NCBI GenBank assembly: GCA_964501335.1
Contig: CAZCTC010000010.1
Location: forward strand, 1 to 64,000
DNA from: an uncultured Anaerolineales bacterium
GTDB lineage: Bacteria > Chloroflexota > Anaerolineae > B4-G1 > SLSP01
Direction of reading: 5' to 3'
Length of the DNA: 64,000 nucleotides
In this document: in pieces, positions 7,701 through 60,675 of the stretch
Layout: each line of letters opens with the position of its first letter
Position numbering within the stretch: the stretch's first letter is position 1
Translations under genes and position numbers: made by a program
The notes under the pieces: generated by a model
What the model was told of the DNA's origin: nothing
The model's database searches: none
The model's input: the letters and a program-made list of their open reading frames with translations, nothing else

Positions 7701-7802
7701 TCCCGCAAATGATCTTTTCCCGGTCAGATACGACGCGCAGGATGGGCAGAGAGAGTTTTTTGTTTATGTTTTCGCGGGCTTCAGAAAGCCCGCGAAAACA
7801 TA
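7701..7802. repeat. Composite intergenic palindromic element (arm tcccgcaaa..gacgcgc..gggagagagtttttt plus GC hairpin core 7766..7801)
   Basis: Arm and hairpin (ttttcgcgggc-ttcagaaa-gcccgcgaaaa) recur at 12768, 14024, 58142 and 58282. Inverted arms recur at 11900 and 19870. Confidence 0.7.
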
Positions 7803-7959
7803 GTCCTTTTTCAGAGCCGCCCCGGCAACGCACTCTGAAGTCCCTCCCCCTCACTCCGATGCCGGCGGCGCATCTTCGCCACGAATCTCCTGGAAGCGCG
7901 TTGCGCCTTCACAACCGCATGGGGGAGGGATTAGGGAGAGGGCCAGCGCGCGAAAACCA

Positions 7960-8012
7960 TTTTCATCCTTCGGGGTGCCGCCCCCGGCATGACCTTCTGT
8001 CCTGAAAATAGC
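7960..8012. repeat. Intergenic repeat family B, copy 2
   Basis: Near-identical to 7617..7670. Confidence 0.6.
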
Positions 8013-8214
8013 CCACGCCGTGCCCCCCACGGGCGACCATAAAGGTCGCCCCTACCCGAACCCCGCCAATGTAGGGACAGGTGGGCGCCCTCTCGTCTGA
8101 AAACAGGCTTTTTTCTCAGACTAATCGCATCGGTCGGTAAAAACAAGAGGCTTTCTGACTAATTCGCGGTGCATTGCATTTTTTGAGGAGCTGAAGTATA
8201 ATAAACAAACGTAA

Positions 8215-8262
8215 TTCTAACCTTTTTCAGGTAATTAGAAAGAAGTTTTCTAACTTTTCAGG
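8215..8262 (+). promoter_or_regulatory. Two direct repeats (ttctaac[c]tttt[t]cagg) between a TATAAT-like box (8197..8202) and the terpene cyclase start
   Basis: Repeats at 8215..8231 and 8247..8262, about 16 nt apart. Possible operator or 5'-UTR element. Confidence 0.25.
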
Positions 8263-8271
8263 AAGGTAAAG

Positions 8272-9825: not shown

Positions 9826-9835
9826 CAACTGGAAG

Positions 9836-9889
9836 TTAAAAAGGATCGCGCGCGGCCCCTCGGAGAGGCCGCGCGCGATCCTTTTTTGT
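9836..9889. terminator. Bidirectional terminator between convergent genes
   Basis: AAAAA-ggatcgcgcgcggcc-loop-ggccgcgcgcgatcc-TTTTTT. Confidence 0.65.
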
Positions 9890-9897
9890 TTGATGTG

Positions 9898-11598: not shown

Positions 11599-11660
11599 CG
11601 TTTTTCTTTCGGTTTATCTGGGGCTGGATAAAAAAAAACGGCCCGGGGAGGCCATTTATG

Positions 11661-11737
11661 TGGTGGGTCGTACAGGATTCGAACCTGTGGCCCTGGGCTT
11701 AAAAGGCCCCTGCTCTGCCGGACTGAGCTAACGACCC
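11661..11737 (-). tRNA. tRNA-Lys (anticodon UUU)
   Basis: Reverse complement reads GGGTCGTTAGCTCAGTCCGGCAGAGCAGGGGCCTTTTAAGCCCAGGGCCACAGGTTCGAATCCTGTACGACCCACCA. It is near-identical in architecture to E. coli tRNA-Lys. Anticodon loop CUUUUAA, T-loop GGTTCGAATCC, CCA encoded. Confidence 0.9.
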
Positions 11738-11788
11738 ACGCGGCTCAAAGTATAACACGCCTCTCTGAGTTGTCAACTTGGGGGCCGG

Positions 11789-11958
11789 CGTCCTGCAAAA
11801 GGAGTTCTTTGACCTGTGCGGTTGGCCCGGAATGGTGGGAGAAACTGAGCCCGTGTTTTTGCGCGCATAAGAATGCGCGCAAAAACACAAAAAAAACACT
11901 TTCTGTCTGCTTCGCACCGCGCGGCGTTTTTTACCGGGAAAGTATCTGTTGCGGGACG
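11789..11958. repeat. Composite palindromic element with both arms (left arm 11789..11852, GC hairpin 11853..11888 gtgtttttgcgcgcat-aagaa-tgcgcgcaaaaacac, inverted right arm 11900..11958)
   Basis: The right arm caccgcgcggcg..accgggaaagt..gcgggacg is the reverse complement of the arm consensus cgtcccgcaaa..cccggt..gacgcgc. Confidence 0.65.
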
Positions 11959-12040
11959 AAAAAACTGTGCTGGATTGTTCCTGCCGGCAATCGGAATACA
12001 ATAGAAAAAAATCGGTTTTCTTTTTGTTGAAGGAGGGTGT

Positions 12041-12715: not shown

Positions 12716-12767
12716 GGGGCTTTGGGCATATCAGACAATTTAAGGCGCGGCGCTGGCAGCTTTAGCA

Positions 12768-12866
12768 CCCCGCACAAGGTGCTTCTCCCGTAAAATACAC
12801 CGCGCTGGATGGGGGAGAGAGTTTTTATTCATTTTTTCGCGCGCCGTCTGCGGCGCGCGAAAAAAT
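12768..12866. repeat. Composite palindromic element (arm plus hairpin core 12832..12865 ttttttcgcgcgcc-gtctgc-ggcgcgcgaaaaaa)
   Basis: Shares ccccgcacaagg..ggatgggggagagagttttt with the other copies. Confidence 0.65.
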
Positions 12867-12923
12867 AAAAATAAATCAAGAAACTCAATTTGTCATTTTG
12901 TGGACTGCTGGTATATTTTTCGT

Positions 12924-14006
12924 ATGCTAAGTCGAAGACATTATCGCTGGTTGGTATTGGGATTGTTAGGGTTAGCGGCCTGCACTCAGACTACTGCGAC
13001 GGGAACACCTCCTCCTGAAACCACTGCATGGACTTCGACACCGGAAATGGGCGCGACGTTTACTCCTACTTTGCTGCCGACGGCCATACCTCAAATTTCT
13101 CCCACGGCTATCTCTTCTCCTGTCCCGGTCGATACTCCGATGCCGGTCGTGTATGTCGTCCAGGCCGGGGATACGCTCTTAGGCGTGGCGTTGGATCAGG
13201 GCGTACCGATGGCGGCTATCCAGCTGGCCAATGAGATGGGGTCTTCAACCGTGGTCCAGGTGGGACAGGAACTGGTGATCCCTCCCACTACCGGCTGGGA
13301 AGGGGCTACGGCTTTTTGGGCCCTCCATCGAGTGGAGGCGGGTGAGACGCTGTACGGGATTGCCGAAGCCTATGGGATTGATCCGGCCCGTTTGCAGTCG
13401 GTCAATGGGCTGGGGGATGCCGATCTGGTGACCGTGGGACAGGATTTGATCCTGCCGATGGCGGCTCCGGGTTCGACTCCTGAATTGACTGAGGTTCCGG
13501 TTGTGGTTGAAGCAACGATGACGCCGGTTCCCCTTCTCACTGAACTGCCTTCTCCGACTTCGGTTCCTGTACCGGTACCTGCGACGGCGGTCGCTCCGCC
13601 CTCGGATGTGATCGATTGGCCGCGGGAGACGGTGCGATTGATCAATGAAGTGCGGGCCAGTTACAATTTGCCTCCGCTGGTTTATAACGAGAAGCTGGCG
13701 TTGGCGGCGCAGGGGCAGGCCAATGATTGCAGCCAGCGGGGCTGGTGCAGCCATACCGGATCGGATGGCTCGGATATCAAAGCGCGGATTTTGCGGGTGG
13801 GATACGATCCTTCCAACTGGGCGGAGTGTTGGGCGCAGCGGCAGAGTCCGCAGGATGCCGTCAATGTCTGGATGAATGAGACACCTCCTGATGATCCACA
13901 CCGCCGGACTCTGCTCAGTACGTGGTTGACTGAGATCGGGATCGGGGTGGCGCCGACGACCTGGGGCTATTATTTTCTGGCCGATTTTGGTAAGCCGCGT
14001 TCCTGA
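12924..14006 (+). CDS. Lipoprotein with two LysM domains and a C-terminal CAP/SCP/PR-1 (YkwD-like) domain
   Basis: Signal/lipobox MLSRRHYRWLVLGLLGLAAC. LysM domains YVVQAGDTLLGVA..VGQELVIP and HRVEAGETLYGIA..VGQDLILP. CAP motifs HTGSDGSD..NVWMNE..HRRTLLS. The ORF could begin at GTG 12900 instead. Confidence 0.75.
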   Translation: MLSRRHYRWLVLGLLGLAACTQTTATGTPPPETTAWTSTPEMGATFTPTLLPTAIPQISPTAISSPVPVDTPMPVVYVVQAGDTLLGVALDQGVPMAAIQLANEMGSSTVVQVGQELVIPPTTGWEGATAFWALHRVEAGETLYGIAEAYGIDPARLQSVNGLGDADLVTVGQDLILPMAAPGSTPELTEVPVVVEATMTPVPLLTELPSPTSVPVPVPATAVAPPSDVIDWPRETVRLINEVRASYNLPPLVYNEKLALAAQGQANDCSQRGWCSHTGSDGSDIKARILRVGYDPSNWAECWAQRQSPQDAVNVWMNETPPDDPHRRTLLSTWLTEIGIGVAPTTWGYYFLADFGKPRS

Positions 14007-14023
14007 CGGGGGAGGTTTTTACG

Positions 14024-14130
14024 TCCCGCAAGGGGTTTTATTCGGTTTGAAGCGACGCGCTGTGCGAAGCAGGGGGAGAGAGTTTTTTGTTAGTGTTTTT
14101 GCGCGCATTCTTATGCGCGCAAAAACACGG
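14024..14130. repeat. Composite palindromic element (arm plus hairpin core 14093..14128, followed by a T-run)
   Basis: tcccgcaagg..gaagcgacgcgc..agggggagagagttttttgttagtgtttttgcgcgcat-tctta-tgcgcgcaaaaacac then ggttttttct. May also terminate the upstream + strand gene. Confidence 0.65.
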
Positions 14131-14269
14131 TTTTTTCTGTTTTCCAGGGGTGATTACACAGGTTGAGAGTTTTTCTAAGAGGGCTTGCAGGATTGCCTGC
14201 TCGTGGTAGACTCAGGGGCAGCTCACTACACTTCATTGACTCTAAATTCTATCAAAAGGCAGGAGAATC

Positions 14270-14737
14270 ATGCGGATTTTGCGGACTTTGACGATTTCTG
14301 TGATGGCGGCGGCAGTTTTGATGGGCTGTGCCGTTACCCCGACGACCCCGGCCCCTACGCCGACGCCTGAAGCCACGGCTACTCCCAAGGAAGAAATCAT
14401 CACTACGGCCTCCGGATTGCAATATATCGATTTGAAGGTCGGCGAGGGCGAGACGCCCCAGGCGGGCCAGGTCGTTGTGGTGCATTATACCGGTTGGCTG
14501 GATGATGGCACCAAGTTCGACAGCTCGGTGGACCGCGGCGAACCTTTCTCTTTCCCGATCGGAATGGGGTATGTGATTACGGGATGGGATGAGGGGGTAG
14601 CGACGATGAAAGTAGGCGGTATCCGCAAGCTGATCATTCCGGCTGAACTGGGCTATGGGGCGCAGGGGGCCGGCGGCGTTATCCCTCCGAATGCCCGGCT
14701 GACCTTCCAGGTTGAATTGCTGGAAATCCAGAAATAG
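14270..14737 (+). CDS. FKBP-type peptidyl-prolyl cis-trans isomerase (lipoprotein)
   Basis: Classic FKBP domain (HYTGWLDDGTKFDSS..FPIGMGYVITGWDEG..IPPNARLTFQVELL). N-terminal lipobox LMGCAVT. RBS AGGAGAA. Confidence 0.9.
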   Translation: MRILRTLTISVMAAAVLMGCAVTPTTPAPTPTPEATATPKEEIITTASGLQYIDLKVGEGETPQAGQVVVVHYTGWLDDGTKFDSSVDRGEPFSFPIGMGYVITGWDEGVATMKVGGIRKLIIPAELGYGAQGAGGVIPPNARLTFQVELLEIQK

Positions 14738-14743
14738 TACGAG

Positions 14744-14776
14744 TTCTTAAGCATTTTTTCGCGCGCCTACAGGGCG
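14744..14776. repeat. GC-hairpin repeat (ttttttcgcgcgcc-tacag-ggcgcgcgaaaaaa)
   Basis: Same gcgcgc-stem family as 12832 and 16260. Confidence 0.65.
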
Positions 14777-14812
14777 CGCGAAAAAATTAAAAATTACTGA
14801 ATAAGGAGCTCC

Positions 14813-16189: not shown

Positions 16190-16259
16190 ACAGCGGCAAG
16201 TAGACAGTAGACAGCAAGGCTTTTTCTACAGGGCAGTGCTGTCAAGCAAGGTAAGGTTT

Positions 16260-16294
16260 AAATTTTCGCGCGCCTTCTCAGGCGCGCGAAAATT
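16260..16294. repeat. GC-hairpin repeat (aaattttcgcgcgcc-ttctca-ggcgcgcgaaaattt) between convergent genes
   Basis: Perfect inverted repeat. Likely also a bidirectional terminator. Confidence 0.65.
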
Positions 16295-16304
16295 TAAATA
16301 GAAT

Positions 16305-17156: not shown

Positions 17157-17238
17157 GGTTGACTCCGTTCAGGTGTTTTGTAAAGGTTTTGGGGATACCT
17201 GTTAGCGACGCACAGAAGATTCAGAGAGTTCCTTATTT

Positions 17239-17276
17239 ATATTTTTCGCCCGCCTTGGCAGGCGGGCGAAAAATAT
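17239..17276. repeat. GC-hairpin repeat (atatttttcgcccgcc-ttggc-aggcgggcgaaaaatat)
   Basis: Same cgcccgcc-stem subfamily as 60643. Preceded by the arm fragment cagagagttccttatttat. Confidence 0.65.
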
Positions 17277-17320
17277 AGCCTTTGGTTAATCGCGTGGGGA
17301 AAGTCTGTCCCCTGGTTGGA

Positions 17321-18583
<1,263 letters not shown>

Positions 18584-19612: not shown

Positions 19613-19814
19613 TTTGCCTCCGTGGCAAGGTCCATCCAGGAGTGTTGATTGAATGGACCCAAACGGGCCCAACTTTACCACAAAAGGGGAGAATGGCAAG
19701 GCGGCAGGAGAAGGAAACGTGAAAGAAGATAAACCTAAGTTTTGGCAGCGTCTGCGGCGCACGAAAACAGGGATAAAAAAACCGACCTGTGCGGTCAGGC
19801 TGAGAAAAAAGCCC

Positions 19815-19935
19815 ATTTTTTTCGGCGGCTTTCTGAAGCCGCCGAAAAAAATGAATAAAATAATTTCTCTTTGCCTGCTTCGCACCGCGCGTTGTATCTT
19901 AACAGGAAAGTGCCGGGTGCGGGATGTCAGAGTGC
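19815..19935. repeat. Composite palindromic element (hairpin 19815..19850 tttttttcggcggc-tttctgaa-gccgccgaaaaaaa plus inverted arm 19870..19935)
   Basis: The loop tttctgaa is the reverse complement of ttcagaaa seen at 7766 and 58216. The arm ctgcttcgcaccgcgcg..ggaaagt..gcgggatg matches 11900..11958. Confidence 0.65.
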
Positions 19936-19953
19936 GAATTCCGAAAGTGTTTT

Positions 19954-49626: not shown

Positions 49627-49966
49627 TGATGTGGCCAGCCGCCGGCTGGTCACTTACATTTTGGAGCGGCATCAACACATTCCAATTCCTGCCTGTAGTG
49701 CGCAGGAAGCTCTGGAATGGCTGGAGGAGAATTGTCCGGAGCTGGCCGTGATGGATATTGCGATGCCGGTGATGGATGGAATGGCTTTGCTTCATCAGTT
49801 GCGAGCCGATCCGCGGTTTCAGAAGCTGCCGGTGTTGGTGGTGACGGCCAGCAGTTATGAGGAGGCCCGCGTCATTGCCGGTGTGGAAGGCGCGAATGGT
49901 TTTTTGACGAAGCCGATCAGTTCGCAGGACCTTCTGGAAGCGGTTGAGCGGCTTTTATCTCGATAA
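49601..49966 (+). CDS. Stand-alone response-regulator receiver (REC) protein
   Basis: ILVVDDD..AVMDIAMPVMDG..TKP. Start taken at MATIL (GGAAGGA upstream). Overlaps the kinase 3' end. Confidence 0.85.
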   Translation: MATILVVDDDVASRRLVTYILERHQHIPIPACSAQEALEWLEENCPELAVMDIAMPVMDGMALLHQLRADPRFQKLPVLVVTASSYEEARVIAGVEGANGFLTKPISSQDLLEAVERLLSR

Positions 49967-49985
49967 CTTTTTCTTTTAAAGATGA

Positions 49986-50034
49986 TTAAGCCATTGGGGC
50001 GCGCTGTCGCAGACAGCGCGCCCCAATGGCTTAA
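49986..50034. repeat. 49-nt perfect palindrome (ttaagccattggggcgcgctgtc-gca-gacagcgcgccccaatggcttaa)
   Basis: Read directly. A 23-bp stem. Lies at the 3' end of the EPS/partner-switch operon. Confidence 0.65.
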
Positions 50035-50082
50035 TTGTAACTTGGGCGGTGAGCCCAGAAAACAAGGCAAAGAAAAACTCAT

Positions 50083-50113
50083 TTTTCGGCGGCTTTCCGA
50101 AGCCGCCGAAAAA
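50083..50113. repeat. GC-hairpin repeat (tttttcggcggc-tttccgaa-gccgccgaaaaa)
   Basis: Same subfamily as 19815 and the truncated copy at the window start (about 40..60). Confidence 0.65.
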
Positions 50114-50364
50114 TGAAAGACAGCACTCTCTTCCCATCCAGCGTGTCGTTTTCTACCAAACAAAGGCTTTTTGCGGGACGCAAGAAACCGAAGATGTGCA
50201 GGCCGAGGGGCGTAAAAGGTACTTGGGGCGGTTTGCCTCTCTTGCAGCTTGGTGTATACTCTACCTTGTTCGCTTACCTGCTGATCGGTAATTTCCCAAG
50301 CTTTTTCATTTGGTGCTGGTTTGGTTTCCCATTAGTCAGAAAAACAAGACCAGGAAAGTACTTT

Positions 50365-51690: not shown

Positions 51691-51734
51691 CCTCTTTGCC
51701 TCTTTTTGTCTATGTTAAATCCCGGAGGTGAAAT

Positions 51735-53282: not shown

Positions 53283-53310
53283 TTAACCATAAAGAACTTA
53301 AGGAGAACTT

Positions 53311-54396
53311 ATGGAGACGAATCTGCTACGCCAACATGCCGAACAGCAATTTGCCGAGGAGCTGCATGAGCTGGCCAGGGTGGACACCCGTGCTCGCCCT
53401 CCCAAGTGGAAGCTTTCGCCCTGGGCGGTAACGACCTATCTGTTGGGGGGCAAGCTGTCCAGCGGCTTTGTCGTTTCGCCCAAGTACATCGGCAACCGGG
53501 CTTTGATGGAAATTGCCGTGGCGACGTTGACGACGGATCGCGCTTTGTTGCTTTATGGGGTGCCCGGGACCGCCAAGAGCTGGGTCTCGGAACATCTGGC
53601 CGCTGCCGTCAGCGGGGATTCTACAATGATCGTCCAGGGGACGGCGGGGACCAGTGAAGAGGCCATTCGCTACGGCTGGAACTATGCCAAACTGCTCACT
53701 GACGGTCCTTCGATCGATGCCCTGGTTACCAGCCCGGTGATGCGGGCGATGACCGAGGGCAAGATTGCCCGCGTGGAAGAGTTGACCCGTATTCCTTCGG
53801 ATGTGCAGGATGCGCTGATTACGATCCTTTCTGAAAAATCGCTGCCGATTCCCGAACTCAATTCGGAGGCGCAGGCGGTGAAGGGGTTCAATATCATTGC
53901 GACGGCCAATAACCGCGATCGCGGCGTCAATGAACTTTCCAGCGCGTTGAAGCGCCGTTTCAATACGGTGGTGCTGCCGGTTCCCAGTACGTTGGAAGAG
54001 GAAACCAAGATCGTTTTGCAGCGCGTGGCTTCGTTGGGCAAGGCGCTGGAGCTGCCGGCGGAGGCGCCTTCAGCGGATGAGGTGAAGCGGATTGTGACGA
54101 TCTTCCGCGAGTTGCGCGACGGCACGACGATCGACGGCAAGACCCGTCTGAAGTCGCCGAGCGGCACGCTGAGCACGGCGGAAGCGATTTCGGTGGTCAA
54201 CAGCGGGCTGGCGTTGGCCGGCTATTTCGGCGACGGCCAGTTGCGGGCTTCGGATATGGCCTCCAGCATTACCGGCGCTGTGGTGAAAGATCCGGTGCAG
54301 GATCGGATTGTCTGGCTGGAATATCTGGAGACGGTGATCAAAGAACGCGATGGTTGGAAGGATCTCTATCGGGCGTGCCGTGAGATGGTGGATTGA
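53311..54396 (+). CDS. MoxR-like AAA+ ATPase
   Basis: Walker A LLYGVPGTAKS, Walker B/sensor region IARVEELTR..ATANN. Size and topology fit MoxR/AAA_5. RBS AAGGAG. Confidence 0.85.
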   Translation: METNLLRQHAEQQFAEELHELARVDTRARPPKWKLSPWAVTTYLLGGKLSSGFVVSPKYIGNRALMEIAVATLTTDRALLLYGVPGTAKSWVSEHLAAAVSGDSTMIVQGTAGTSEEAIRYGWNYAKLLTDGPSIDALVTSPVMRAMTEGKIARVEELTRIPSDVQDALITILSEKSLPIPELNSEAQAVKGFNIIATANNRDRGVNELSSALKRRFNTVVLPVPSTLEEETKIVLQRVASLGKALELPAEAPSADEVKRIVTIFRELRDGTTIDGKTRLKSPSGTLSTAEAISVVNSGLALAGYFGDGQLRASDMASSITGAVVKDPVQDRIVWLEYLETVIKERDGWKDLYRACREMVD

Positions 54397-54479
54397 GGAT
54401 GCGGTGGGCGTGAGCCGCTGCAAAGATGAACGGTACCTATCTGGCTTGCCGATGACACCCATAACAAGGAGGCTGTACG

Positions 54480-56861
54480 ATGGCGCCTTCGGGGAGTGAT
54501 CCTTCTGTCCGGATTTTCGGTATCCGCCACCATGGGCCGGGTTCGGCGCGTAATCTGGTGGCGGCGCTGAAGGCGTTTGCGCCCGACGGGATTTTGATTG
54601 AAGGGCCGGTCGAGGCGAGCGATTTGATCGCCATGACGGCTAATCCCAAAATGAAACCGCCGGTGGCACTGCTGGTCTATGTCCCTGATCGGCCGCAGTG
54701 TTCCGGTTTTTATCCTTTTGCGGTTTTTTCTCCGGAATGGCAGGCCATGCAGTATGCTTTGAAAAACAACCTGCCGGTCCGGTTTATGGATCTGCCGCAG
54801 CAAAACTGGCTGGCTTTGAATCCGGCCGCGGAAGAGGAATCGCTTATTCCCATACTTCCGGCGGAAGGGGAAGCAGCGGCGGCACCGGCGGCTGAGCCTG
54901 AGCCTGAGGCGCCGGCAGCTTCTGTGGACTCGACAGCCTGTGAGGCCGATGGGGGCGAGGCGGTGGATTTGATGACGATCGCGGCTGATCCACTGGATCT
55001 GCTGGCCAAAGTGGCCGGCGCGGAGAGCGGCGAGATCTGGTGGGGGCAGCTGGTCGAGGAACATAAGGAAGAGCCGGAGCTTTTCCCGGCGATTCTGGAG
55101 GCGATGGGGGCGTTGCGGATGCTCGATAAGGACGGCATCCCGACGGCAGATCCCCGCGATCCGGTGGAGCCGCTGCGCGAGGCTTCGATGCGGACCATCA
55201 TCCGGGCGGCTCAGAAAGAAGGCTGGCAGCGCATCGCGGTGGTCTGCGGAGCCTGGCATGCGCCGGCCCTGGTGCCTTTGACCCGGACGGTCAAATCCGA
55301 TCGGGATCTGTTGAAGGGACTGGCCAAAGTTAAAGTGGAGGCGACATGGGTGCCGTGGAGCTACGGCCATCTGGCGCGCGAAAGCGGTTACGGCGCGGGA
55401 ATTTTGTCGCCGGGCTGGTATGAGCATCTCTGGCGGACGCCGCAACATACGGCGGTGAAGTGGCTGGGTCGGGTGGCCAAGTTGCTGCGCCACGAGGATC
55501 TGGATGCCTCGGCCGCTCAGGTGATCGATGCGGTGCGGCTTTCGGAGGCGCTGGCGGCGATCCGCGGATTGGCTCGCCCCGGTCTGACTGAATTGAATGA
55601 AGCGGTGCTGACGGTTTTCTGCTTCGGCAATGCGGTCCCCTTGAAGGTGATCGAGAAGCAGATGATCGTGGGCGAGAAGCTGGGGGAGGTGCCGGCCGAT
55701 ACGCCGGGGGTGCCGTTGCAGGCCGATCTGGCGGCGTTACAGAAAAAGCTGCGGATGCTGCCCAAGCCTGAGGCGGAGACAAAGGATCTGGATCTGCGGG
55801 AGCCGATGGATCTGGCGCGCAGTACCCTGCTGCATCGGTTGAAGCTGCTGGAGATTCCGTGGGGTAAACCGGGACGTTCGGGCGGCGGCAAAGGGACCTT
55901 CCATGAGATATGGACGTTGAAATGGGACCCGGCTTTTTCGGTGGCGCTGGTCGATGCCTCTCATTGGGGCAATACGGTGGCGACGGCGGCGCTGGGGTTG
56001 GCGACTTTCAAGGCTGAGAATGCGCCTAATCTGGGATTCCTGACCGGATTGCTGGATCAGGTGCTGCTGGCCGATCTGCCGAAGGCGGTGGGGCCGGTGA
56101 TGACCGGTATCCAGGCGCGAATGGCGAGAAGCGGCGATGTGGCGGGGCTGATGGATGCGATTCCGCCGCTGGCGCGGGCGATGCGTTATGGCACGGTGCG
56201 TCAGACTTCGGGGACGGCGCAATTCGATTTTAAGGCTTTCAACGAGATCCTCGATGGGATGGTCACCCGTATCTGCATCGGGTTGCCGCTGGCCTGCGCT
56301 TCGCTGGACGACGCGGCGGCGGATGCAATGTTGAGCCTGATCGAATCCACGCAGGAGAGTCTGGATCTGTTGCAAAACGAAAGCTGGTTGACGAGCTGGC
56401 GGCAGGTGTTGTTGCGGCTGGCCGATCAGGGTGGGTTGCACGGGTTGATTGCGGGGCGTTGCACCCGGATGCTGTTCGATGTCGGGATGCTGGATGCGGA
56501 GGAAGTGGCGAAACGGTTGGGCCTGGCCCTTTCTCCGGGCAACGGTCCGGAGGCCTCGGCGACCTGGCTGGCCGGGTTGCTGCGAGGCAGTGGGCTGTTG
56601 TTGTTGCACGATGCGAAACTCTGGTCGATCCTGGACGGCTGGGTGCGGGATCTGTCGGCGGACCATTTTATCACCGTCTTGCCGCTGCTGCGGCGGGCTT
56701 TCTCGGCCTTCACGCCGCCTGAACGGCGGCAGATGGGCGAGCTGGTGGTCCGGGGGGTGAAGAAATCCCATGGACCTGCCGATCTGGCCGTGGATGAGGA
56801 ACGGGCCAATGCCGTGTTGCCTCAGCTGGCCCGGCTGTTGGGCCTGAGTTTGAACGAATAG
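54480..56861 (+). CDS. Large protein (DUF5682-like) with N-terminal TraB/TIKI-like motifs
   Basis: 793 aa. N-terminal IFGIRHHGPGSA..(about 230 aa)..VVCGAWHAPAL resembles the paired GxxH motifs of the TraB/PrgY/TIKI/GumN superfamily. The rest is helical. RBS AAGGAGG. Confidence 0.55.
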   Translation: MAPSGSDPSVRIFGIRHHGPGSARNLVAALKAFAPDGILIEGPVEASDLIAMTANPKMKPPVALLVYVPDRPQCSGFYPFAVFSPEWQAMQYALKNNLPVRFMDLPQQNWLALNPAAEEESLIPILPAEGEAAAAPAAEPEPEAPAASVDSTACEADGGEAVDLMTIAADPLDLLAKVAGAESGEIWWGQLVEEHKEEPELFPAILEAMGALRMLDKDGIPTADPRDPVEPLREASMRTIIRAAQKEGWQRIAVVCGAWHAPALVPLTRTVKSDRDLLKGLAKVKVEATWVPWSYGHLARESGYGAGILSPGWYEHLWRTPQHTAVKWLGRVAKLLRHEDLDASAAQVIDAVRLSEALAAIRGLARPGLTELNEAVLTVFCFGNAVPLKVIEKQMIVGEKLGEVPADTPGVPLQADLAALQKKLRMLPKPEAETKDLDLREPMDLARSTLLHRLKLLEIPWGKPGRSGGGKGTFHEIWTLKWDPAFSVALVDASHWGNTVATAALGLATFKAENAPNLGFLTGLLDQVLLADLPKAVGPVMTGIQARMARSGDVAGLMDAIPPLARAMRYGTVRQTSGTAQFDFKAFNEILDGMVTRICIGLPLACASLDDAAADAMLSLIESTQESLDLLQNESWLTSWRQVLLRLADQGGLHGLIAGRCTRMLFDVGMLDAEEVAKRLGLALSPGNGPEASATWLAGLLRGSGLLLLHDAKLWSILDGWVRDLSADHFITVLPLLRRAFSAFTPPERRQMGELVVRGVKKSHGPADLAVDEERANAVLPQLARLLGLSLNE

Positions 56862-56874
56862 GAGGCCGGGAACG

Positions 56875-58059
56875 ATGGCAAAAGGATCGACCTCAATGGA
56901 AGTGGTGGATGAGCGCACCCGGCGCTGGCGTCTGATTCTGGGCGGCGGCGAGGCCGATGGGACCGGAATGTGCGCCGGAATAGGGGGCGGTTTGAGTGCG
57001 GAGGATATCGGGATGGATAAGGCGCTGACGGCGCTTTACGACAGCGATCGGAGCGCCGGTCTGGGCAGCTCGGCTCCCAATGTGGCGCGCTGGCTGGGCG
57101 ATATCCGCACCTATTTTCCGCAGAGTGTGGTGCAGGTTTTGCAGAAGGATGCTCTGGAGCGGTTGGATCTGAAGCAGATGTTGATGGAGCCGGAGATGTT
57201 GGAACAGATCCAGCCGGATGTCCATCTGGCGGCGACGCTGGTTTCACTCAAGAGCGCGTTGCCGGGTAAGACGCGGGATACGGCGCGGGTGGTGGTACGC
57301 AAGGTGGTGGAAGATCTGGAGCGCCGTCTGGGCGAGCCGCTGCGCCAGGCGGTGCGGGGCAGCCTGGACCGTACGGCGCGGACTTTTCGCCCGCGTTTCA
57401 ATGAAATCGACTGGAACCGGACGATTCGGATCAACCTGAGCCGCTATCAGAAGGATTATCACACGATTATCCCGGAACGGCGGGTGGGCTATCCCCGGCG
57501 GCGCGGGTCGGCGCTGCGGCATATCGTGCTGTGCGTGGATCAGAGCGGTTCGATGGCCTCTTCGGTGGTCTATGCCGGGATCTTCGGGGCGGTGCTGGCT
57601 TCGTTGAAGGCGGTGAGCACCCGGGTGGTGGTTTTCGATACCGAGGTGGTGGATCTGACGGAGATGATTGCCGATCCGGTGGAGATGTTGTTCGGGACGC
57701 AGCTGGGCGGCGGTACCGATATCAATCGGGCGCTGGCTTATTGTCAGACGGTCATCGACAAGCCGCAGGATACCATTCTGGTGTTGTTGAGCGATATGTA
57801 CGAAGGGGGCAACGAGACGGAGATGATCCAGCGGGCCCGGGCCCTGGTGGATTCCGGGGTGCAGATGATCGGGTTGCTGGCGCTGGACGATCACGGGGCG
57901 CCGTCGTACAGCCATCGGGTGGCGGCGGATCTGGCGGCGCTGGGCGTGCCGTCGTTTGCCTGCACGCCGGATCAGTTCCCGCAGATGATGGCGGCGGCCA
58001 TTCAGCGGCAGGATATGTCGATGTGGGCGGCGACGGAAGGGATTGCGATCGCCCACTGA
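56875..58059 (+). CDS. vWA-domain protein (MoxR partner)
   Basis: MIDAS DQSGSM..GGGTD. C-terminal vWA domain, N-terminal helical region. Confidence 0.8.
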   Translation: MAKGSTSMEVVDERTRRWRLILGGGEADGTGMCAGIGGGLSAEDIGMDKALTALYDSDRSAGLGSSAPNVARWLGDIRTYFPQSVVQVLQKDALERLDLKQMLMEPEMLEQIQPDVHLAATLVSLKSALPGKTRDTARVVVRKVVEDLERRLGEPLRQAVRGSLDRTARTFRPRFNEIDWNRTIRINLSRYQKDYHTIIPERRVGYPRRRGSALRHIVLCVDQSGSMASSVVYAGIFGAVLASLKAVSTRVVVFDTEVVDLTEMIADPVEMLFGTQLGGGTDINRALAYCQTVIDKPQDTILVLLSDMYEGGNETEMIQRARALVDSGVQMIGLLALDDHGAPSYSHRVAADLAALGVPSFACTPDQFPQMMAAAIQRQDMSMWAATEGIAIAH

Positions 58060-58070
58060 GTTTTTAGTTT

Positions 58071-58128
58071 AGAGCATTTTGTAAGGGCGCCGGCCATAGG
58101 CCGGCGCCCTTATAAAATGCTCTTTTTA
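58071..58128 (+). terminator. Intrinsic terminator after the vWA gene
   Basis: agagcattttgtaagggcgccggcc-atag-gccggcgcccttataaaatgctct followed by TTTTT. Confidence 0.7.
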
Positions 58129-58141
58129 CTCGGGTGATTAA

Positions 58142-58251
58142 CATTTTAGCATCCCGCAAAAGGCTTTCGTTCGGCTTGAAGCGACGCGCGGGAGGGGGAG
58201 AGAGTTTTTTTGTTTATGTTTTCGCGGGCTTCAGAAAGCCCGCGAAAACAT
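58142..58251. repeat. Composite palindromic element, tandem copy 1 (hairpin core 58216..58251)
   Basis: cattttagcatcccgcaaaaggctttcgttcggcttgaagcgacgcgcgggagggggagagagtttttttgtttatgttttcgcgggc-ttcagaaa-gcccgcgaaaacat. Confidence 0.7.
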
Positions 58252-58281
58252 GGGCTTTTTTTCTGTGCCCCTGATGCCGGG

Positions 58282-58390
58282 CATTTTAGCATTCCGCAAA
58301 AGGCTTTCGTTCGGCTTGAAGCGACGCGCGGGATGGGGAGAGAGTTTTTTTGTTTATGTTTTTGCGGGCTTCAGAAAGCCCGCGAAAACA
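58282..58390. repeat. Composite palindromic element, tandem copy 2 (hairpin core 58356..58390)
   Basis: Near-identical to 58142..58251 (about 130-bp tandem duplication). Confidence 0.7.
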
Positions 58391-58580
58391 GGGGTTTTTC
58401 CTTTACTTGTTTTCCGGGCTCACCGCACAGGTGGGAATTTATTCAAAATGTTTTTTATTCCGGCGATTTTTGACTTCGGCCCAAGGTGGGCTATACTGGG
58501 GGCATATTTATAACTTTGCGACTTATGGCGCTTGTGTGCGTATTTCTTATCTTGTAAGGAATGTAAGGAGGAGACGGATC

Positions 58581-59342
58581 ATGAGCAAACGACCTGGTGG
58601 TGAGTTGGCGACGCGGCCTTTGCACTTCATCTGGATTGCAGACTGCTCGGGTTCCATGACGACGGACGGCAAAATTCAGGCTTTGAACAACGCGATTCGA
58701 GAGGCGATTCCGCACATGCAGAAGGTCGCCGATGAGAATCCCAATGCTCAGGTTTTGATCCGGGCGATCAAGTTCTCCAATGGGGCGCAGTGGCATATTT
58801 CTCAACCGACGCCGGTGGAAGATTTCAAGTGGGTGGATCTGCCGGCCGAGGGCGTGACCGATATGGGGCGTGCTCTGACGATGGTGGCCGAACAGTTGAA
58901 GATCCCGCCCATGACCGACCGGGCGCTGCCTCCGGTGCTGGTGCTGCTTTCCGATGGGCAGCCGACCGATGATTTCAACAAGGGGTTGAAGGATCTGTTG
59001 GATCAACCCTGGGGCAAGAAGGCGGTCCGGATTGCCATCGCGATCGGCGCCGATGCGGATAAGGATGTTTTGCAGAAATTTATCAACCATCCGGAATTGC
59101 GGCCGTTGCAGGCCAACAATCCGGAGGCGTTGGTGCGCCATATCAAGTGGGTCTCGACGGCGGTGTTGAAGTCGGCATCCGCACCCGCCAGCCAGACGAC
59201 GGCTCCGACTCCGACTCCGACTCCTGCGGGTGTGCCGGTGGACAACGCCGGAGGCGCTCCGAGCCAACCCGCTGTTTCCAATGTGCCGATGCCGGTAGCG
59301 CCGCCGCCGGATGACCCCAATTCTTCCGCGGACGTCTGGTAG
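58581..59342 (+). CDS. TerY-like vWA-domain protein
   Basis: MIDAS DCSGSM. Compact vWA (about 190 aa) plus Pro/Thr-rich tail. RBS AGGAGGAG. Immediately upstream of a PP2C gene (TerY-P arrangement). Confidence 0.75.
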   Translation: MSKRPGGELATRPLHFIWIADCSGSMTTDGKIQALNNAIREAIPHMQKVADENPNAQVLIRAIKFSNGAQWHISQPTPVEDFKWVDLPAEGVTDMGRALTMVAEQLKIPPMTDRALPPVLVLLSDGQPTDDFNKGLKDLLDQPWGKKAVRIAIAIGADADKDVLQKFINHPELRPLQANNPEALVRHIKWVSTAVLKSASAPASQTTAPTPTPTPAGVPVDNAGGAPSQPAVSNVPMPVAPPPDDPNSSADVW

Positions 59343-59346
59343 GTCG

Positions 59347-60591
59347 ATGGAGATGAGCGGCGGGAAGCCTTCCTTGAAGTGGCGGGCCATCGGCCGCTCG
59401 GTTATTGGCGCTTCTCATATCCGGTCGGGGATGCCGAATCAGGATGCGATTCGGCTTCCGGATGAAGTAGAAGGAGCGCTGATCCTGGCGGTTTCGGATG
59501 GTCATGGTAGTTCGCGGTACTTCCGCAGCGACCGGGGCGCGCGCATGGCGGTGGATTGTTCAGTGACGCTGCTGAAGGAATTTTTGAAGGGGCAGCCGGA
59601 TCTGACCAATCTTTCGTCGATCAAGCGGACGGCCGATGAGCGGTTGCCTCAGGAACTGGTCCGGCGCTGGCATGCGGCTGTGGCAGAAGATCTGAGCCGT
59701 GAACCGTTGACTTCGGAGGAATTGACCATCCTGGAGCGGAAAGAGAGCAGTAAAGCCCGCCAGTCGGTCGAGCGTAAGCCGATGCTGGCTTATGGGGCCA
59801 CGTTGCTTGCGGTGGTGGTGACGGAAGCCTTTATTTTCTACCTGCAACTGGGGGATGGCGATATCCTGACTGTTTCGGAAGATGGGGAAGTCTCGCGACC
59901 GATTCCTCACGATCCGCGATTGATGGCCAATCAGACGACTTCGCTGTGTGCGGATGATGCCTGGCGGGATGTGATTGTGCGGTTGCAGGCCGTGGTGGGC
60001 AAGCCCCCGGCGTTGATCCTGCTTTCTACGGACGGGTATGCCAACTCATTTGTGAATGAAGAGGCGTTCCTGAAGGTCGGGAGCGATATCCTCGATATTA
60101 TCCAGGAATCGGGGCTGGCTTTTGTGGAAAAGGATCTGGAGAGCTGGCTGACTGAGGCCTCCCGGGCAGGCAGCGGCGACGACATTACGATGGGGATTGT
60201 CTGTCGGATGGATGTCCCGGGCGTGACGTGGGGCCCGAAGGAGACTCCAGCCATGCTGGTCCAGAAACCGCCGCAGATTCATGAACGGCCGAAGGCGGAA
60301 GAGCCGGTTGAGGCTAAAAAAAACGAACCGGCTGAGGCCGAGGAATCAAAGCCGGAAGAAGAGAAGCCCGTCGAAGCGAAGCCTGCGGAAGGCAAAGAAG
60401 CTGAGGCGAATTTGGCGGCGGCGGAAGAGCCGGCCATCCCTCAACCTGCGGAACCGGCTTCACTTCCTGAGCGGGGAGAATCGGAATCTCCGGCGAAAGA
60501 TTCCGGGGGCACTCCCGGCGATGAGGATTCTGACGGCTATCCCTGGATGTATCCGACGGTGACCCAACCGCCGAGAATTAAGCCGCGCTAG
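59347..60591 (+). CDS. PP2C-family Ser/Thr phosphatase with acidic low-complexity C-terminal tail
   Basis: ASHIRSGMPNQDA..LAVSDGHGSS..; C-terminal Glu/Pro/Ala/Lys-rich tail. Confidence 0.8.
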   Translation: MEMSGGKPSLKWRAIGRSVIGASHIRSGMPNQDAIRLPDEVEGALILAVSDGHGSSRYFRSDRGARMAVDCSVTLLKEFLKGQPDLTNLSSIKRTADERLPQELVRRWHAAVAEDLSREPLTSEELTILERKESSKARQSVERKPMLAYGATLLAVVVTEAFIFYLQLGDGDILTVSEDGEVSRPIPHDPRLMANQTTSLCADDAWRDVIVRLQAVVGKPPALILLSTDGYANSFVNEEAFLKVGSDILDIIQESGLAFVEKDLESWLTEASRAGSGDDITMGIVCRMDVPGVTWGPKETPAMLVQKPPQIHERPKAEEPVEAKKNEPAEAEESKPEEEKPVEAKPAEGKEAEANLAAAEEPAIPQPAEPASLPERGESESPAKDSGGTPGDEDSDGYPWMYPTVTQPPRIKPR

Positions 60592-60642
60592 GTCAGGAAA
60601 AACTTACCAGCCTATTGCGGGCAACCCTTAAATCTATACTTA

Positions 60643-60675
60643 TATTTTCGCCCGCCTCAACAGGCGGGCGAAAAT
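60643..60675. repeat. GC-hairpin repeat (attttcgcccgcc-tcaaca-ggcgggcgaaaat)
   Basis: Same subfamily as 17239. Confidence 0.65.

What the first reader, a model, noticed from the sequence alone, without database searches (positions are those of the whole stretch)
7766..60675. Dispersed family of GC-stemmed perfect hairpin repeats with compensatory stem variation (at least 13 copies in 64 kb)
Intergenic hairpins of the form T(4-7)-[8-10 bp GC stem]-[5-8 nt loop]-[stem]-A(4-7). Cores lie at about 40..60 (truncated), 7766, 11853, 12832, 14093, 14744, 16260, 17239, 19815, 50083, 58216, 58356 and 60643. The stems fall into three types (cgcgggc, gcgcgc, cgcccgcc), but each copy is perfectly self-complementary, so the structure is maintained by compensatory change. 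Loops ttcagaaa and tttctgaa are reverse complements, meaning both orientations are present. The copies occur regardless of flanking gene orientation. Because the A/T runs pair with each other, they are not classical U-tailed terminators. This is REP/MITE-like behaviour, and candidate roles are recombination, mRNA stabilisation or a protein-binding site.
Basis: seen in the sequence. Interest (0 to 1): 0.6.

Follow-up and report, generated by a model that had tools for sequence, protein, structure and literature searches.

The report
Dispersed repeat units carrying terminator hairpins
The hairpins are real and are the cores of a roughly 170-base repeat that fills many gaps between genes in an uncultured Anaerolineae bacterium; on one strand each core reads as a transcription stop signal, so this is an undescribed family of a familiar kind of bacterial intergenic repeat.

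Summary
There are 12 complete T-run/GC-stem/A-run palindromes, one truncated copy and one copy without a palindrome. All are intergenic, against 0 expected by chance.

Nine hairpins are the cores of an oriented unit of about 170 nt:
- a 5' module with invariant CCGCA and CGACGCGC
- a purine tract
- a T-run
- the palindrome
- a T-run
- a small 3' hairpin

The same unit occurs in other contigs, flanked there by genes unrelated to the window's, and it breaks short-read assemblies. It is absent from 55 kb of relatives at about 75% protein identity.

In unit orientation the stem extends by G·U pairs (28 against 1 on the other strand). A T-rich tail follows (at least 5 of 8 T in 12 of 19 units, against 0 of 19). 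However, only about 12 of 21 units face an incoming gene, four sites lie between divergent genes, and four hairpins have no U-tail.

Best reading: a lineage-specific interspersed repeat of the REP/BIME/MITE kind, spread by an unknown mechanism, whose core acts as a terminator or 3'-end hairpin. No inverted terminal repeats, target duplications, transposase, Rfam family or published description were found. Interest is moderate.

The parts
27..80 (+). 5'-truncated unit: loop, 3' arm (GCCGCCGAAAA), T-rich stretch and CTGGGCTAATCG; the left arm is missing
   Evidence: Read directly, and compared with the 3' halves of units 19814 and 50079
7682..7871 (+). Full unit. Palindrome 7765-7802 (17-bp stem, loop CAGA), then TCCTTTTT. 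It lies after the 2253-aa gene and after that gene's own terminator at 7589
11783..11975 (-). Full unit with the TGCGAAGCA insertion. Palindrome 11853-11888, weak T tail. It lies in the divergent gap between tRNA-Lys (-) and the SRAP gene (+), upstream of the tRNA's TTGACA/TATACT promoter
12749..12890 (+). Unit with an intact 5' module. Palindrome 12831-12866 (loop TCTG, inverted relative to its closest relative L037:2570). No T tail and no 3' module
14005..14192 (+). Full unit. Palindrome 14093-14128, then GG TTTTTT. It lies downstream of the LysM/CAP gene
14753..14787 (.). Solo palindrome (15-bp stem) in the 75-nt gap between the FKBP and M20 genes. No T tail on either strand
16257..16298 (.). 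Solo palindrome (19-bp stem) between the convergent M20 and NAGPA genes. No T tail
17157..17328 (+). Diverged unit. Palindrome 17238-17277 (18-bp stem). It is antisense to both flanking genes and has a weak T tail
19756..19943 (-). Full unit. Palindrome 19814-19853, then GGGC TTTTTT, then the small hairpin GACC-GCACA-GGTC followed by T7. It lies downstream of the DegT gene and upstream of a promoter-like site for the PfkB gene
24283..24456 (+). Unit with an intact 5' module but no palindrome. It lies in the divergent gap upstream of the vault-protein-like gene
   Evidence: nhmmer 75.9 bits; alignment; no hairpin
50011..50197 (-). Full unit. Palindrome 50079-50116, then a strong T tail on the minus strand. 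It is antisense to both flanking + genes and abuts the unique 24-bp-stem palindrome at 49985-50035
58133..58272 (+). First unit of a head-to-tail doublet (period 140). Palindrome 58216-58251; the stem extends by G-C plus 3 U·G pairs and T7 follows immediately
   Evidence: top strand -47.3 kcal/mol, bottom strand -34.2 kcal/mol
58273..58461 (+). Second unit of the doublet. Palindrome 58356-58391 with one T·G pair; 4 U·G extension pairs; T-rich tail; 3' hairpin CACC-GCACA-GGTG
60644..60675 (.). Solo palindrome (14-bp perfect stem, extendable to about 19 bp) between the PP2C and WD40 genes. No T tail

Best explanation
The hairpins are the cores of a lineage-specific interspersed intergenic repeat in an uncultured Anaerolineae (Chloroflexota) bacterium.

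**Anatomy of a full unit (about 170 nt, oriented).**
- A roughly 60-nt 5' module: a small hairpin with the conserved loop CCGCAAAA, a pyrimidine tract, and CGACGCGC.
- A purine tract, GGGGAGAGAG.
- A T-run.
- A perfect palindrome of 14-19 bp, made of a T4-7 base, a 7-8 bp G+C core and a 4-nt loop.
- A second T-run.
- A small 3' hairpin (GACC-GCACA-GGTC) that repeats the start of the unit in direct orientation.

**Proposed mechanism (inferred).**
- When the unit's top strand is transcribed, the palindrome plus 1-4 flanking G·U pairs folds into a long hairpin, reaching about 20-23 bp in the best cases. A U-tract follows immediately or within a few nucleotides, which stops RNA polymerase and/or caps the 3' end of the RNA against exonucleases.
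- The upstream GA-rich tract can pair with the U-tract, as A-tracts do in ordinary terminators, but only on this strand.
- The units typically lie between the end of one gene and the promoter of the next, so they act as insulating terminators.

**Spread (shown) and its mechanism (unknown).** The units were spread by copying. Copies are 73-88% identical in blastn alignments and sit at unrelated loci, in either orientation, including between divergent genes and as head-to-tail doublets. How they are copied is unknown. The Watson-Crick-only core, the paired G:C to C:G swaps and the inverted loops point to a DNA-level process, such as palindrome correction or recombination, or recognition by a transposase that acts on hairpins.
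For: **It is a real repeat family.**
- 11 pattern matches against 0 expected.
- nhmmer finds 10 units in the window, and more in L005, L010/L037 and L020.
- The genes flanking the units in those loci are not homologous to the window's genes.
- Short-read Logan contigs L001 and L034 end exactly in the repeats.

**It is lineage-specific.** 55 kb from three relatives at 72-76% protein identity (L031, L035, L036) contain no unit, and only one unrelated palindrome with a stem of at least 9 bp.

**It is intergenic and abundant.**
- Family elements occupy 12 of 26 gaps of at least 40 nt.
- By my arithmetic, they make up about 39% of that intergenic DNA.

**It has strand-specific terminator anatomy.**
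- Across 19 units, G·U stem extensions number 28 on the top strand and 1 on the bottom strand.
- T makes up 64% of the 8 nt after the stem on the top strand, against 6% on the bottom.
- At least 5 of those 8 nt are T in 12 of 19 units on top, against 0 of 19 on the bottom (window subset).
- The extension pairs at alignment columns 89-91/129-131 are U·G in 7-15 of 17 sequences.
- The top-strand RNA folds more stably than the bottom strand: -47.3 against -34.2, -35.6 against -29.2, and -41.5 against -39.8 kcal/mol.

**The structure is maintained.** In the stem, 92.5% of cells are paired and 10 of 20 pairs change on both sides. Slid controls give 33-48% paired.

**Placement fits insulation.** Promoter-like sites lie just downstream of units 11853, 12831 and 19814.

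**It is not gene-tied.**
- Only about 12 of 21 units face an incoming gene.
- Four sites are divergent gaps.
- All 4 doublets are head-to-tail.
Against: - No transcript data exist, so termination is inferred from sequence alone.
- Four window copies (12831, 14753, 16257, 60644) have no U-tract on either strand. Three units face no incoming gene: 11853, 17238 and 50079, and only 50079 among them has a strong T tail.
- Three units sit just behind a gene that already has its own unique palindrome (7589, 49985, 58082), so they are not needed there as that gene's terminator.
- The conserved 5' module is unexplained by a terminator role. It has no supported RNA fold.
- No signs of transposition were found: no inverted terminal repeats, no target-site duplication, no transposase nearby, and no empty orthologous site for comparison.
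- L010/L037 come from the same sample as the window (SRR6476076) and may be the same genome. 'Shared between genomes' is therefore not established.
Confidence: 0.55

Rival explanations
1. The element is a purely DNA-level selfish element of the REP/RAYT or IS200/IS605-derived (PATE) type. A Y1/HUH transposase, encoded elsewhere in the genome, recognises single-stranded DNA hairpins and copies the unit. On this view the terminator-like features are incidental, or merely tolerated because they are harmless between genes.
For: - The core palindrome is almost entirely Watson-Crick: at most 3 non-standard or wobble cells among roughly 255. It changes mainly by G:C to C:G swaps, which have no wobble intermediate.
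- The loop is inverted between copies that are otherwise alike: window 12831 has TCTG and L037:2570 has CAGA.
- The two small end hairpins are direct repeats of one another, like the left and right subterminal hairpins of IS200/IS605, and not inverted repeats.
- All doublets are head-to-tail.
- Orientation relative to genes is close to random.
- Other Anaerolineae genome bins carry a different roughly 150-nt repeat built around the same kind of core.
Against: - The strong strand asymmetry (28 against 1 G·U pairs; T tails on one strand only) is a feature of RNA and is not expected from DNA recognition alone.
- No transposase gene lies in the window or next to units in L020 or L037.
- No conserved target tetranucleotide lies next to the left end.
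- There is no replication-strand bias: 7 of 10 units are on the G-rich strand in the window, but only 1 of 6 in L037.
- The GTAG and CGTC tags of the two published REP super-families are absent next to the stem (PMC3733652).
Confidence: 0.2
2. The hairpins are ordinary intrinsic terminators that evolved in place. Their resemblance would reflect a genome-wide preference in terminator design, not copying.
For: - This genome also uses unique long perfect palindromes directly after stop codons (7589, 9838, 27195, 49985, 58082, 63132).
- Many units carry a canonical hairpin followed by a U-tract.
- Generic T-run/GC-stem/A-run hairpins occur sporadically in many phyla.
Against: - About 100 nt of non-hairpin flank is conserved at 73-88% identity between copies at unrelated loci, with shared subfamily insertions such as TGCGAAGCA.
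- Units occur between divergent genes and antisense to both neighbours.
- Tandem doublets exist.
- Relatives at about 75% identity have none.
Confidence: 0.07
3. The units are a multi-copy small RNA, or a regulatory RNA derived from 3' untranslated regions. The 5' module would be the functional body, with a conserved loop CCGCAAAA and a C-rich UUUCCC tract that could pair with Shine-Dalgarno-like sequences. The palindrome plus U-tail would be its terminator, flanked by U-rich stretches as in Hfq-binding small RNAs.
For: - The 5' module has invariant positions and no insertions or deletions over about 43 columns.
- The small hairpin SL-a shows some changes on both sides (GCACC/GGTGC against GTGCC/GGCAC).
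- The unit at 24283 keeps the module without the palindrome.
- The strand-specific terminator defines a transcript end.
Against: - No conserved promoter lies upstream, because conservation starts only about 5-10 nt before the first hairpin.
- No sigma-70-like site falls within the units.
- RNAalifold finds no fold outside the palindrome.
- SL-a carries a constant mismatch, and the pyrimidine/purine helix is no better than the controls.
- No Rfam family matches.
- Dozens to hundreds of copies would be unusual for a small RNA.
Confidence: 0.1
4. The 5' module is a DNA binding site or an alternative-sigma promoter, used by a regulator or nucleoid protein, that happens to be linked to a terminator.
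For: - Blocks of invariant sequence (CCCGCA, CGACGCGC) are held at fixed spacing.
- A semi-conserved TAARAW lies 16-17 nt after CCCGCA.
- 15 of 22 units are co-oriented with the downstream gene.
Against: - CCCGCA does not resemble any -35 element that I know of.
- A transcript started there would run straight into the unit's own terminator.
- Real promoters, for example that of tRNA-Lys, lie outside the unit.
Confidence: 0.05

Closest known systems
REP elements and BIMEs (bacterial interspersed mosaic elements) of Escherichia coli and other Proteobacteria
   Same: - High-copy, G+C-rich palindromes of 30-40 bp, found only outside genes.
- The palindromes are combined with other short motifs into mosaic units, often clustered.
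- They are transcribed with neighbouring genes.
- Proposed roles are mRNA 3'-end stabilisation and termination.
   Different: - REP stems are imperfect and short (8-9 bp in the CGTC families), and most described families carry a GTAG or CGTC tag at one end (PMC3733652). Here the stems are perfect, 14-19 bp, flanked by T and A runs, and have no tag.
- REP dimers are mostly head-to-head or tail-to-tail. Here all four doublets are head-to-tail.
- The unit is much longer (about 170 nt), with a conserved module that is not palindromic.
Bacterial MITEs that carry regulatory signals, for example Correia elements (CREE/NEMIS) of Neisseria and ERIC/IRU of enterobacteria
   Same: - Non-coding units of 100-200 nt scattered in intergenic DNA in either orientation, including promoter regions.
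- They fold into long hairpins in RNA.
- They can supply terminators, processing sites or promoters to neighbouring genes (from my own knowledge of these families).
   Different: - MITEs are defined by terminal inverted repeats and target-site duplications (TA for Correia elements). Neither is present here: the unit ends are direct repeats.
- No parent insertion sequence is known.
Canonical (L-shaped) intrinsic terminators, including long-stem terminators such as TerR of plasmid pLS20
   Same: - A G+C-rich hairpin is followed directly by a U-tract.
- An upstream purine tract is complementary to the U-tract.
- Very long stems, as in the terminator that resists processive antitermination (PMC10325885).
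   Different: - Terminators are normally unique sequences tied to the 3' end of a gene. These are copies of one template.
- About 40% face no incoming gene.
- About a third lack a U-tract.
Uptake-sequence terminators of Neisseria and Haemophilus (inverted DUS/USS pairs)
   Same: A repeated sequence motif that is found genome-wide as the stem of terminator hairpins (PMC1852404, listed).
   Different: - There the repeat is a fixed 10-12-mer selected for DNA uptake.
- Here the stem sequence varies (five types), and it is the flanks that are conserved.
IS200/IS605-derived palindrome-associated elements (PATEs) and REPINs mobilised by RAYTs
   Same: - Small non-coding elements recognised through DNA hairpins.
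- They lack terminal inverted repeats.
- In IS200/IS605 the left and right subterminal hairpins lie in direct orientation.
- IS200 itself carries a terminator-like hairpin near its left end (from my own knowledge).
   Different: - No Y1 transposase was found.
- No conserved target tetranucleotide was found.
- No strand bias was found.
- This resemblance is a lead, not a tested membership.

Membership tests
Intrinsic (Rho-independent) terminator | A G+C-rich RNA hairpin followed within 0-2 nt by a U-rich tract of about 7-9 nt | tested here: inconclusive
   - Met on the unit's top strand for 12 of 19 units (at least 5 of 8 T after the G·U-extended stem) and never on the bottom strand.
- Not met for window copies 12831, 14753, 16257 and 60644 on either strand.
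Intrinsic (Rho-independent) terminator | Located at the 3' end of a transcription unit, on its coding strand | tested here: inconclusive
   - About 12 of 21 units face an incoming gene.
- The others are antisense to their neighbours or lie in divergent gaps.
Intrinsic (Rho-independent) terminator | Transcripts actually end there | not testable with these tools
   No RNA data are available for this uncultured organism.
REP (repetitive extragenic palindrome), in the broad sense | A short (20-40 bp) G+C-rich palindrome, present in many copies and only outside genes | tested here: met
   - 12 palindromes of 32-42 bp, all intergenic.
- Further copies occur in L005, L020 and L037.
GTAG- or CGTC-tagged REP super-families (Di Nocera et al. 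2013) | An unpaired GTAG or CGTC motif directly at one end of the stem. The CGTC families have 8-9-bp stems starting with A/T pairs, 4-5-nt loops and a CCA tail | tested here: not met
   - The stems are flanked by T-rich sequence (for example GTTTATG) on the 5' side and by CAT/GGGC on the 3' side.
- The only CGTC lies about 70 nt away, in the 5' module.
REP/REPIN | A cognate RAYT (Y1 transposase) gene flanked by the repeats | not testable with these tools
   - None among the window's genes, nor in L020 or L037.
- RAYTs are usually single-copy, and the rest of the genome could not be read.
MITE | Terminal inverted repeats at the two ends of the unit | tested here: not met
   - The ends carry the same motif in direct orientation: CCGGGC..CCGCA(A/C)A(A)GG.
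- The only inverted complementarity outside the palindrome is the low-complexity pairing of purine and pyrimidine tracts, which is no better than the slid controls.
MITE | Target-site duplication flanking each copy | tested here: not met
   No duplicated flank is visible at the boundaries of the 17 aligned units.
MITE / mobile element in general | Insertion polymorphism, that is, filled against empty orthologous sites | not testable with these tools
   - The closest relatives available are only 72-76% identical in protein sequence and are not syntenic.
- The duplicate assemblies are 100% identical.
Integron attC site | R''(RYYYAAC)...R'(GTTRRRY) polarity, an imperfect stem with extrahelical bases, and flanking promoterless cassettes | tested here: not met
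   - The polarity is reversed (5' RTGTTTT ... AAAACAY 3') and the stems are perfect.
- The neighbours are housekeeping genes such as tRNA-Lys and AdoHcy hydrolase.
Described structured RNA family (Rfam 15) | A match to a covariance model at or near its gathering score | tested here: not met
   - At gathering threshold only tRNA-Lys is found.
- Permissive scans over three units return only noise.
- Chloroflexi-1 (RF01698) does not match.

The most novel reading that the evidence does not exclude
The units, together with the differently flanked repeat that has the same kind of core in other Anaerolineae bins (L011, L017, L025), may form a class-wide superfamily of mobile 'terminator cassettes'. 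They would be copied through their DNA hairpins by a transposase or recombinase that has not been identified. Supporting features are the direct-repeat subterminal hairpins, head-to-tail arrays, the Watson-Crick-only core and loop inversion. The conserved 5' module would then be either the recognition site for that enzyme or a functional RNA body. If so, a selfish element would supply a large share of this lineage's transcription punctuation.
Probability: 0.2. Interest if true: 0.6.

Novelty: new variant of a known kind. Interest (0 to 1): 0.4.

Why it matters
- **Genome biology.** If this reading is right, about 40% of the intergenic DNA in this stretch of an uncultured Anaerolineae genome is one repeat family that also provides ready-made, one-directional terminators. 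That would be a clear example of a spreading repeat being used as transcriptional punctuation, in a phylum where neither terminators nor small mobile elements have been studied.
- **Assembly and binning.** The repeats break short-read assemblies, and contigs L005 and L020, which carry them, are binned to other taxa. Recognising the family would therefore help assembly and binning of these organisms.
- **Annotation.** The family is also a source of false 'new non-coding RNA' or 'new regulatory motif' calls.
- **Possible follow-up.** The unexplained, strongly conserved 5' module and the DNA-symmetric core are handles for finding the enzyme that copies the units.

Tried and rejected
- **Rfam.** The gathering scan of the whole window and permissive scans of three units found only tRNA-Lys and noise.
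- **RNA fold of the flanks.**
  - RNAalifold on the whole unit, on the 5' part, on the 3' part and with the palindrome replaced gave no consensus helix apart from the palindrome.
  - Hand-specified helices were weak. SL-a is 71% paired with a constant mismatch, GCGUC/GACGC shows no covariation, and SL-b is 62% paired.
  - The pyrimidine/purine-tract helix equals its shuffled and slid controls.
- **Promoter inside the unit.** There is no sigma-70-like site. The spacing between CCCGCA and TAARAW fits a 17-nt spacer, but the '-35' resembles no consensus I know.
- **Small ORF.** ATG or GTG at the stem base is not conserved and is simply part of the stem. The pattern of insertions and deletions is not codon-like.
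- **Integron attC.** Wrong polarity, perfect stems and housekeeping neighbours.
- **Solitary copies of the end motif as empty target sites.** None were found outside units, apart from an inverted fragment at 11788-11803.
- **Target-site duplications or a conserved target tetranucleotide.** None.
- **Transposase or HUH genes.** None in the window or next to units in L020, L010 or L037.
- **Wider searches.**
  - The genome-collection scan used a pattern that was too generic and stopped at 26 loci.
  - The JGI metagenome scan gave 3 unrelated hits.
  - Viral contigs gave 0 hits and plasmids gave no match.
- **Relatives reached through the M20 dipeptidase.** L031, L035 and L036 lack the family and are not syntenic, so no comparison of filled against empty sites was possible.
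- **Literature.** Nothing was found on such repeats in Anaerolineae or Chloroflexi.

Full report
**1. What is in the sequence**

The window is bacterial chromosome: 56% G+C, strong GC skew (+0.165) and T in excess of A on the + strand. A scan for perfect palindromes finds 17 with stems of at least 14 bp.

They lie at 7765, 11853, 12831, 14093, 14753, 16257, 17238, 19814, 50079, 58216 and 60644. A twelfth at 58356 has one T/G mismatch.

A degenerate pattern for the family matches 11 times, against 0.00 in shuffles. The 'truncated' copy near the window start is a genuine 3' half.

There are five stem types, not three.

The remaining six long palindromes (7589, 9838, 27195, 49985, 58082, 63132) are unique sequences. 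They sit 12-107 nt after stop codons, or between the convergent gene pair at 9838, and look like gene-specific terminators. Two of them are classical A-run/stem/T-run bidirectional terminators.

**2. The hairpins are the cores of a larger unit**

Printing the flanks and aligning them shows that nine hairpins sit in a conserved, oriented unit of about 170 nt. Its consensus is:

(CCGGGC)nTTTTAGCG-TCCCGCAAAAGGCAC-TTTCCCGGTAAGAAA-CGACGCGCTG-[GAT or TGCGAAGCA]-GGGGAGAGAG-T(5-7)-GTTTATG-[TTTT-CGCGGGC-TT-CAGA-AA-GCCCGCG-AAAA]-CATGGGC-T(5-7)-CTCCCGC-TTTTCCGGGC-TGACC-GCACA-GGTCG

- A profile search finds 10 units in the window. Seven are on the + strand and three on the - strand.
- One of them (24283-24456) has an intact 5' module but no palindrome.
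- Two form a head-to-tail doublet with period 140 (58133 and 58273).
- Three hairpins (14753, 16257, 60644) are 'solo', with at most traces of the flanks.
- The loop orientation follows the unit orientation. CAGA (or CGGA) occurs in 11 of 17 aligned units, with two clear inversions: 12831 against L037:2570, and L020:3554 against the TCTT group.

**3. Where else it occurs**

The organism is an Anaerolineae bacterium. The M20 dipeptidase has its best foreign matches, at 72-76% identity, in genome bins named Anaerolineae or Anaerolineales.

Even so, three of those contigs carry the full unit:
- L005, binned as Nitrospiraceae
- L010, binned as Anaerolineaceae
- L020, binned as Geobacter

L020 holds six units in 8 kb. 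A longer copy of the L010 contig (L037) holds six units in 16 kb. The genes around these units are unrelated to the window's genes.

L010/L037 and the window both have exact counterparts in sample SRR6476076, and they have similar G+C content and skew. They may therefore be the same or a very close genome. I do not claim that the family is shared between distant genomes.

Short-read contigs from that sample end exactly in the repeats (L001 = window 14101-16211; L034 runs from about 50087 to about 58183). That is what a multi-copy repeat does to an assembly.

Several other results bound the distribution:
- 55 kb from three relatives at about 75% protein identity contain no unit, and only one unrelated palindrome with a stem of at least 9 bp.
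- JGI metagenomes, viral contigs and plasmids gave nothing.
- Other Anaerolineae bins (L011, L017, L023, L025, L027) carry hairpins with the same kind of core, for example GGAGTATTTTTGCGGGCGG-AGTA-CCGCCCGCAAAAATACTCC.
- In L011, L017 and L025 this core is embedded in a different repeat of about 150 nt, which has its own small hairpin GCCGCTAAAGCGGC.

**4. Position relative to genes**

Using Pfam-supported ORFs, all family elements are intergenic.
- They occupy 12 of 26 gaps of at least 40 nt, and 11 of the 16 gaps of at least 100 nt. Four of the other five large gaps hold either a unique palindrome (two) or nothing obvious (two).
- By my arithmetic the units make up about 39% of that intergenic DNA.
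- None lie in the tightly packed, lower-G+C polysaccharide-synthesis block at 27.6-49 kb.
- Gap types are tandem, convergent and divergent. The divergent sites are 11853 and 24283 in the window, and 8326/8608 and 13547 in L037.
- Counting the window, L020 and L037, about 12 of 21 units have their T-tailed strand facing an incoming gene, and 15 of 22 are co-oriented with the downstream gene.
- Three units lie just behind a gene's own unique palindrome.
- Promoter-like sites, including the clear TTGACA-16-TATACT promoter of tRNA-Lys, lie shortly downstream of units 11853, 12831 and 19814.

**5. Strand-specific terminator anatomy**

In the context of the unit this is wrong for most copies.

On the unit's top strand the perfect stem continues through G·U pairs (for example GUUUAUG with CAUGGGC) and is then followed directly by a T-run. 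Across 19 units with a perfect palindrome (window subset):

| Measure | Top strand | Bottom strand |
|---|---|---|
| G·U extension pairs | 28 | 1 |
| T in the next 8 nt | 64% | 6% |
| Units with at least 5 of 8 T | 12 of 19 | 0 of 19 |

- In the 17-unit alignment the three extension pairs are U·G in 7-15 sequences.
- Top-strand RNAs fold more stably than bottom-strand RNAs.
- The upstream GGGGAGAGAG tract can pair with the U-tract and the following CUCCC through A-U and G·U pairs, again only on this strand.

By sequence, then, the unit carries a one-directional, long-stem canonical terminator. The exceptions are 12831 and the three solo hairpins, which have no T tail on either strand, and 11853 and 17238, where the tail is weak.

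**6. The core palindrome looks DNA-symmetric**

- In the core, 10 of 16 pairs vary, yet almost every cell is a Watson-Crick pair. There is one U·G, one G/G and one alignment artefact among roughly 255 cells.
- Most changes are G:C to C:G swaps, which have no wobble intermediate.
- Stem types are shuffled relative to flank subfamilies, and loops are occasionally inverted.

I infer a DNA-level process that changes both arms together, such as palindrome correction by template switching or recombination between arms, or a requirement that both strands fold. This is an inference, not a demonstration.

**7. The flanking modules**

- The 5' module has invariant CCGCA, near-invariant CGACGCGC, and no insertions or deletions over about 43 columns.
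- I could not assign a function to it. It has no consensus fold, only weak or unsupported hand-drawn helices, no sigma-70-like promoter, no ORF and no Rfam family.
- The small 3' hairpin (GACC-GCACA-GGTC, with CACC/GGTG and GAUU/GGUU variants) resembles the start of the unit. The unit is therefore bounded by direct repeats, not inverted ones, and all four doublets are head-to-tail.
- There are no terminal inverted repeats, no target duplications, no solitary end motifs and no transposase genes nearby.

**8. Interpretation**

*Shown:* this is a real, abundant, lineage-restricted, copied repeat family with an oriented unit, a structurally maintained central hairpin, and strand-specific terminator features.

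*Inferred:*
- The core terminates transcription or protects 3' ends on the top strand.
- The units often act as insulators between a gene end and the next promoter.
- The units spread by an unknown copying mechanism that acts on DNA.

The main rival keeps the spreading but treats the terminator features as incidental (a REP/RAYT or IS200/IS605-like element). Weaker rivals are a multi-copy small RNA, ordinary terminators that evolved in place (contradicted by the conserved flanks) and a protein-binding or promoter module.

**9. Comparison with known families**

- The element works like REP/BIME elements and like signal-carrying MITEs such as Correia elements, and its core works like a long-stem intrinsic terminator.
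- It fails the defining tests for MITEs, which are terminal inverted repeats and target duplication.
- It fails the test for the GTAG- and CGTC-tagged REP super-families (PMC3733652).
- It fails the tests for attC sites and for any Rfam family.
- Association with a RAYT could not be tested.
- I found no description of such repeats in Anaerolineae or Chloroflexi.

I therefore rate it a new variant of a known kind of element, of moderate interest.

Noticed in passing
window 24487-27087 (+): An 866-aa bacterial homologue of the eukaryotic major vault protein. It matches Pfam Vault repeats (4 stretches), Vault_2/3/4 and the MVP shoulder domain (E = 8e-67). A palindrome-less copy of the repeat unit lies directly upstream.
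   Followed up: no
window 50113-63117 (+): A run of genes with eukaryote-like or conflict-system domains: SWIM, DUF5691, MoxR-type AAA_5, DUF5682, VWA/CoxE, VWA, PP2C, WD40 and LRR. The SWIM-DUF5691-AAA-DUF5682-VWA block looks like one conserved multi-gene system.
   Followed up: no
window 27589-49966 (+): A 22-kb block on one strand with lower G+C (49-53%). It encodes polysaccharide synthesis (flippase, Wzy-like protein, many glycosyltransferases, GH44), followed by STAS / SpoIIE / anti-sigma-kinase / response-regulator partner-switching genes. It contains no repeat units and may have been acquired horizontally.
   Followed up: partly
window 7589-7620, 9838-9886, 27195-27235, 49985-50035, 58082-58112, 63132-63173: Six unique perfect palindromes (stems 14-24 bp) that lie 12-107 nt after stop codons, one of them (9838) between a convergent gene pair. 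Only 7589 and 9838 have classical A-run/T-run flanks, and the other four lack a clear U-tract. This genome therefore seems to end many genes with long perfect hairpins regardless of a U tail.
   Followed up: partly
L011:1230-1418, L017:7677-7718, L025:1329-1360, L023:459-500, L027:1-42: Other Anaerolineae or Chloroflexota bins carry hairpins with the same kind of core (GT[A/G]TTTTTGCGGGCG...). In L011, L017 and L025 the core is embedded in a different repeat of about 150 nt, tandem in L011, that contains a small GCCGCTAAAGCGGC hairpin. This may be a class-wide superfamily.
   Followed up: partly
L001 (= window 14101-16211) and L034 (about window 50087-58183): Short-read contigs of sample SRR6476076 begin and end inside the repeat units. 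Contigs L005 and L020, which carry the unit, are binned as Nitrospiraceae and Geobacter. The repeats appear to fragment assemblies and may confuse binning.
   Followed up: partly
window 11788-11803 (+): An inverted fragment of the unit's 5' motif (GCGTCCTGCAAAAGGA) lies just beyond the 3' end of the minus-strand unit 11783-11975. It could be a remnant of a second, oppositely oriented unit, or a one-off inverted terminal repeat.
   Followed up: no
whole window: GC skew is strong and uniform (+0.165 overall, up to +0.28) with T in excess of A on the + strand, and most genes are on that strand. L037 shows the same skew (+0.18).
   Followed up: no
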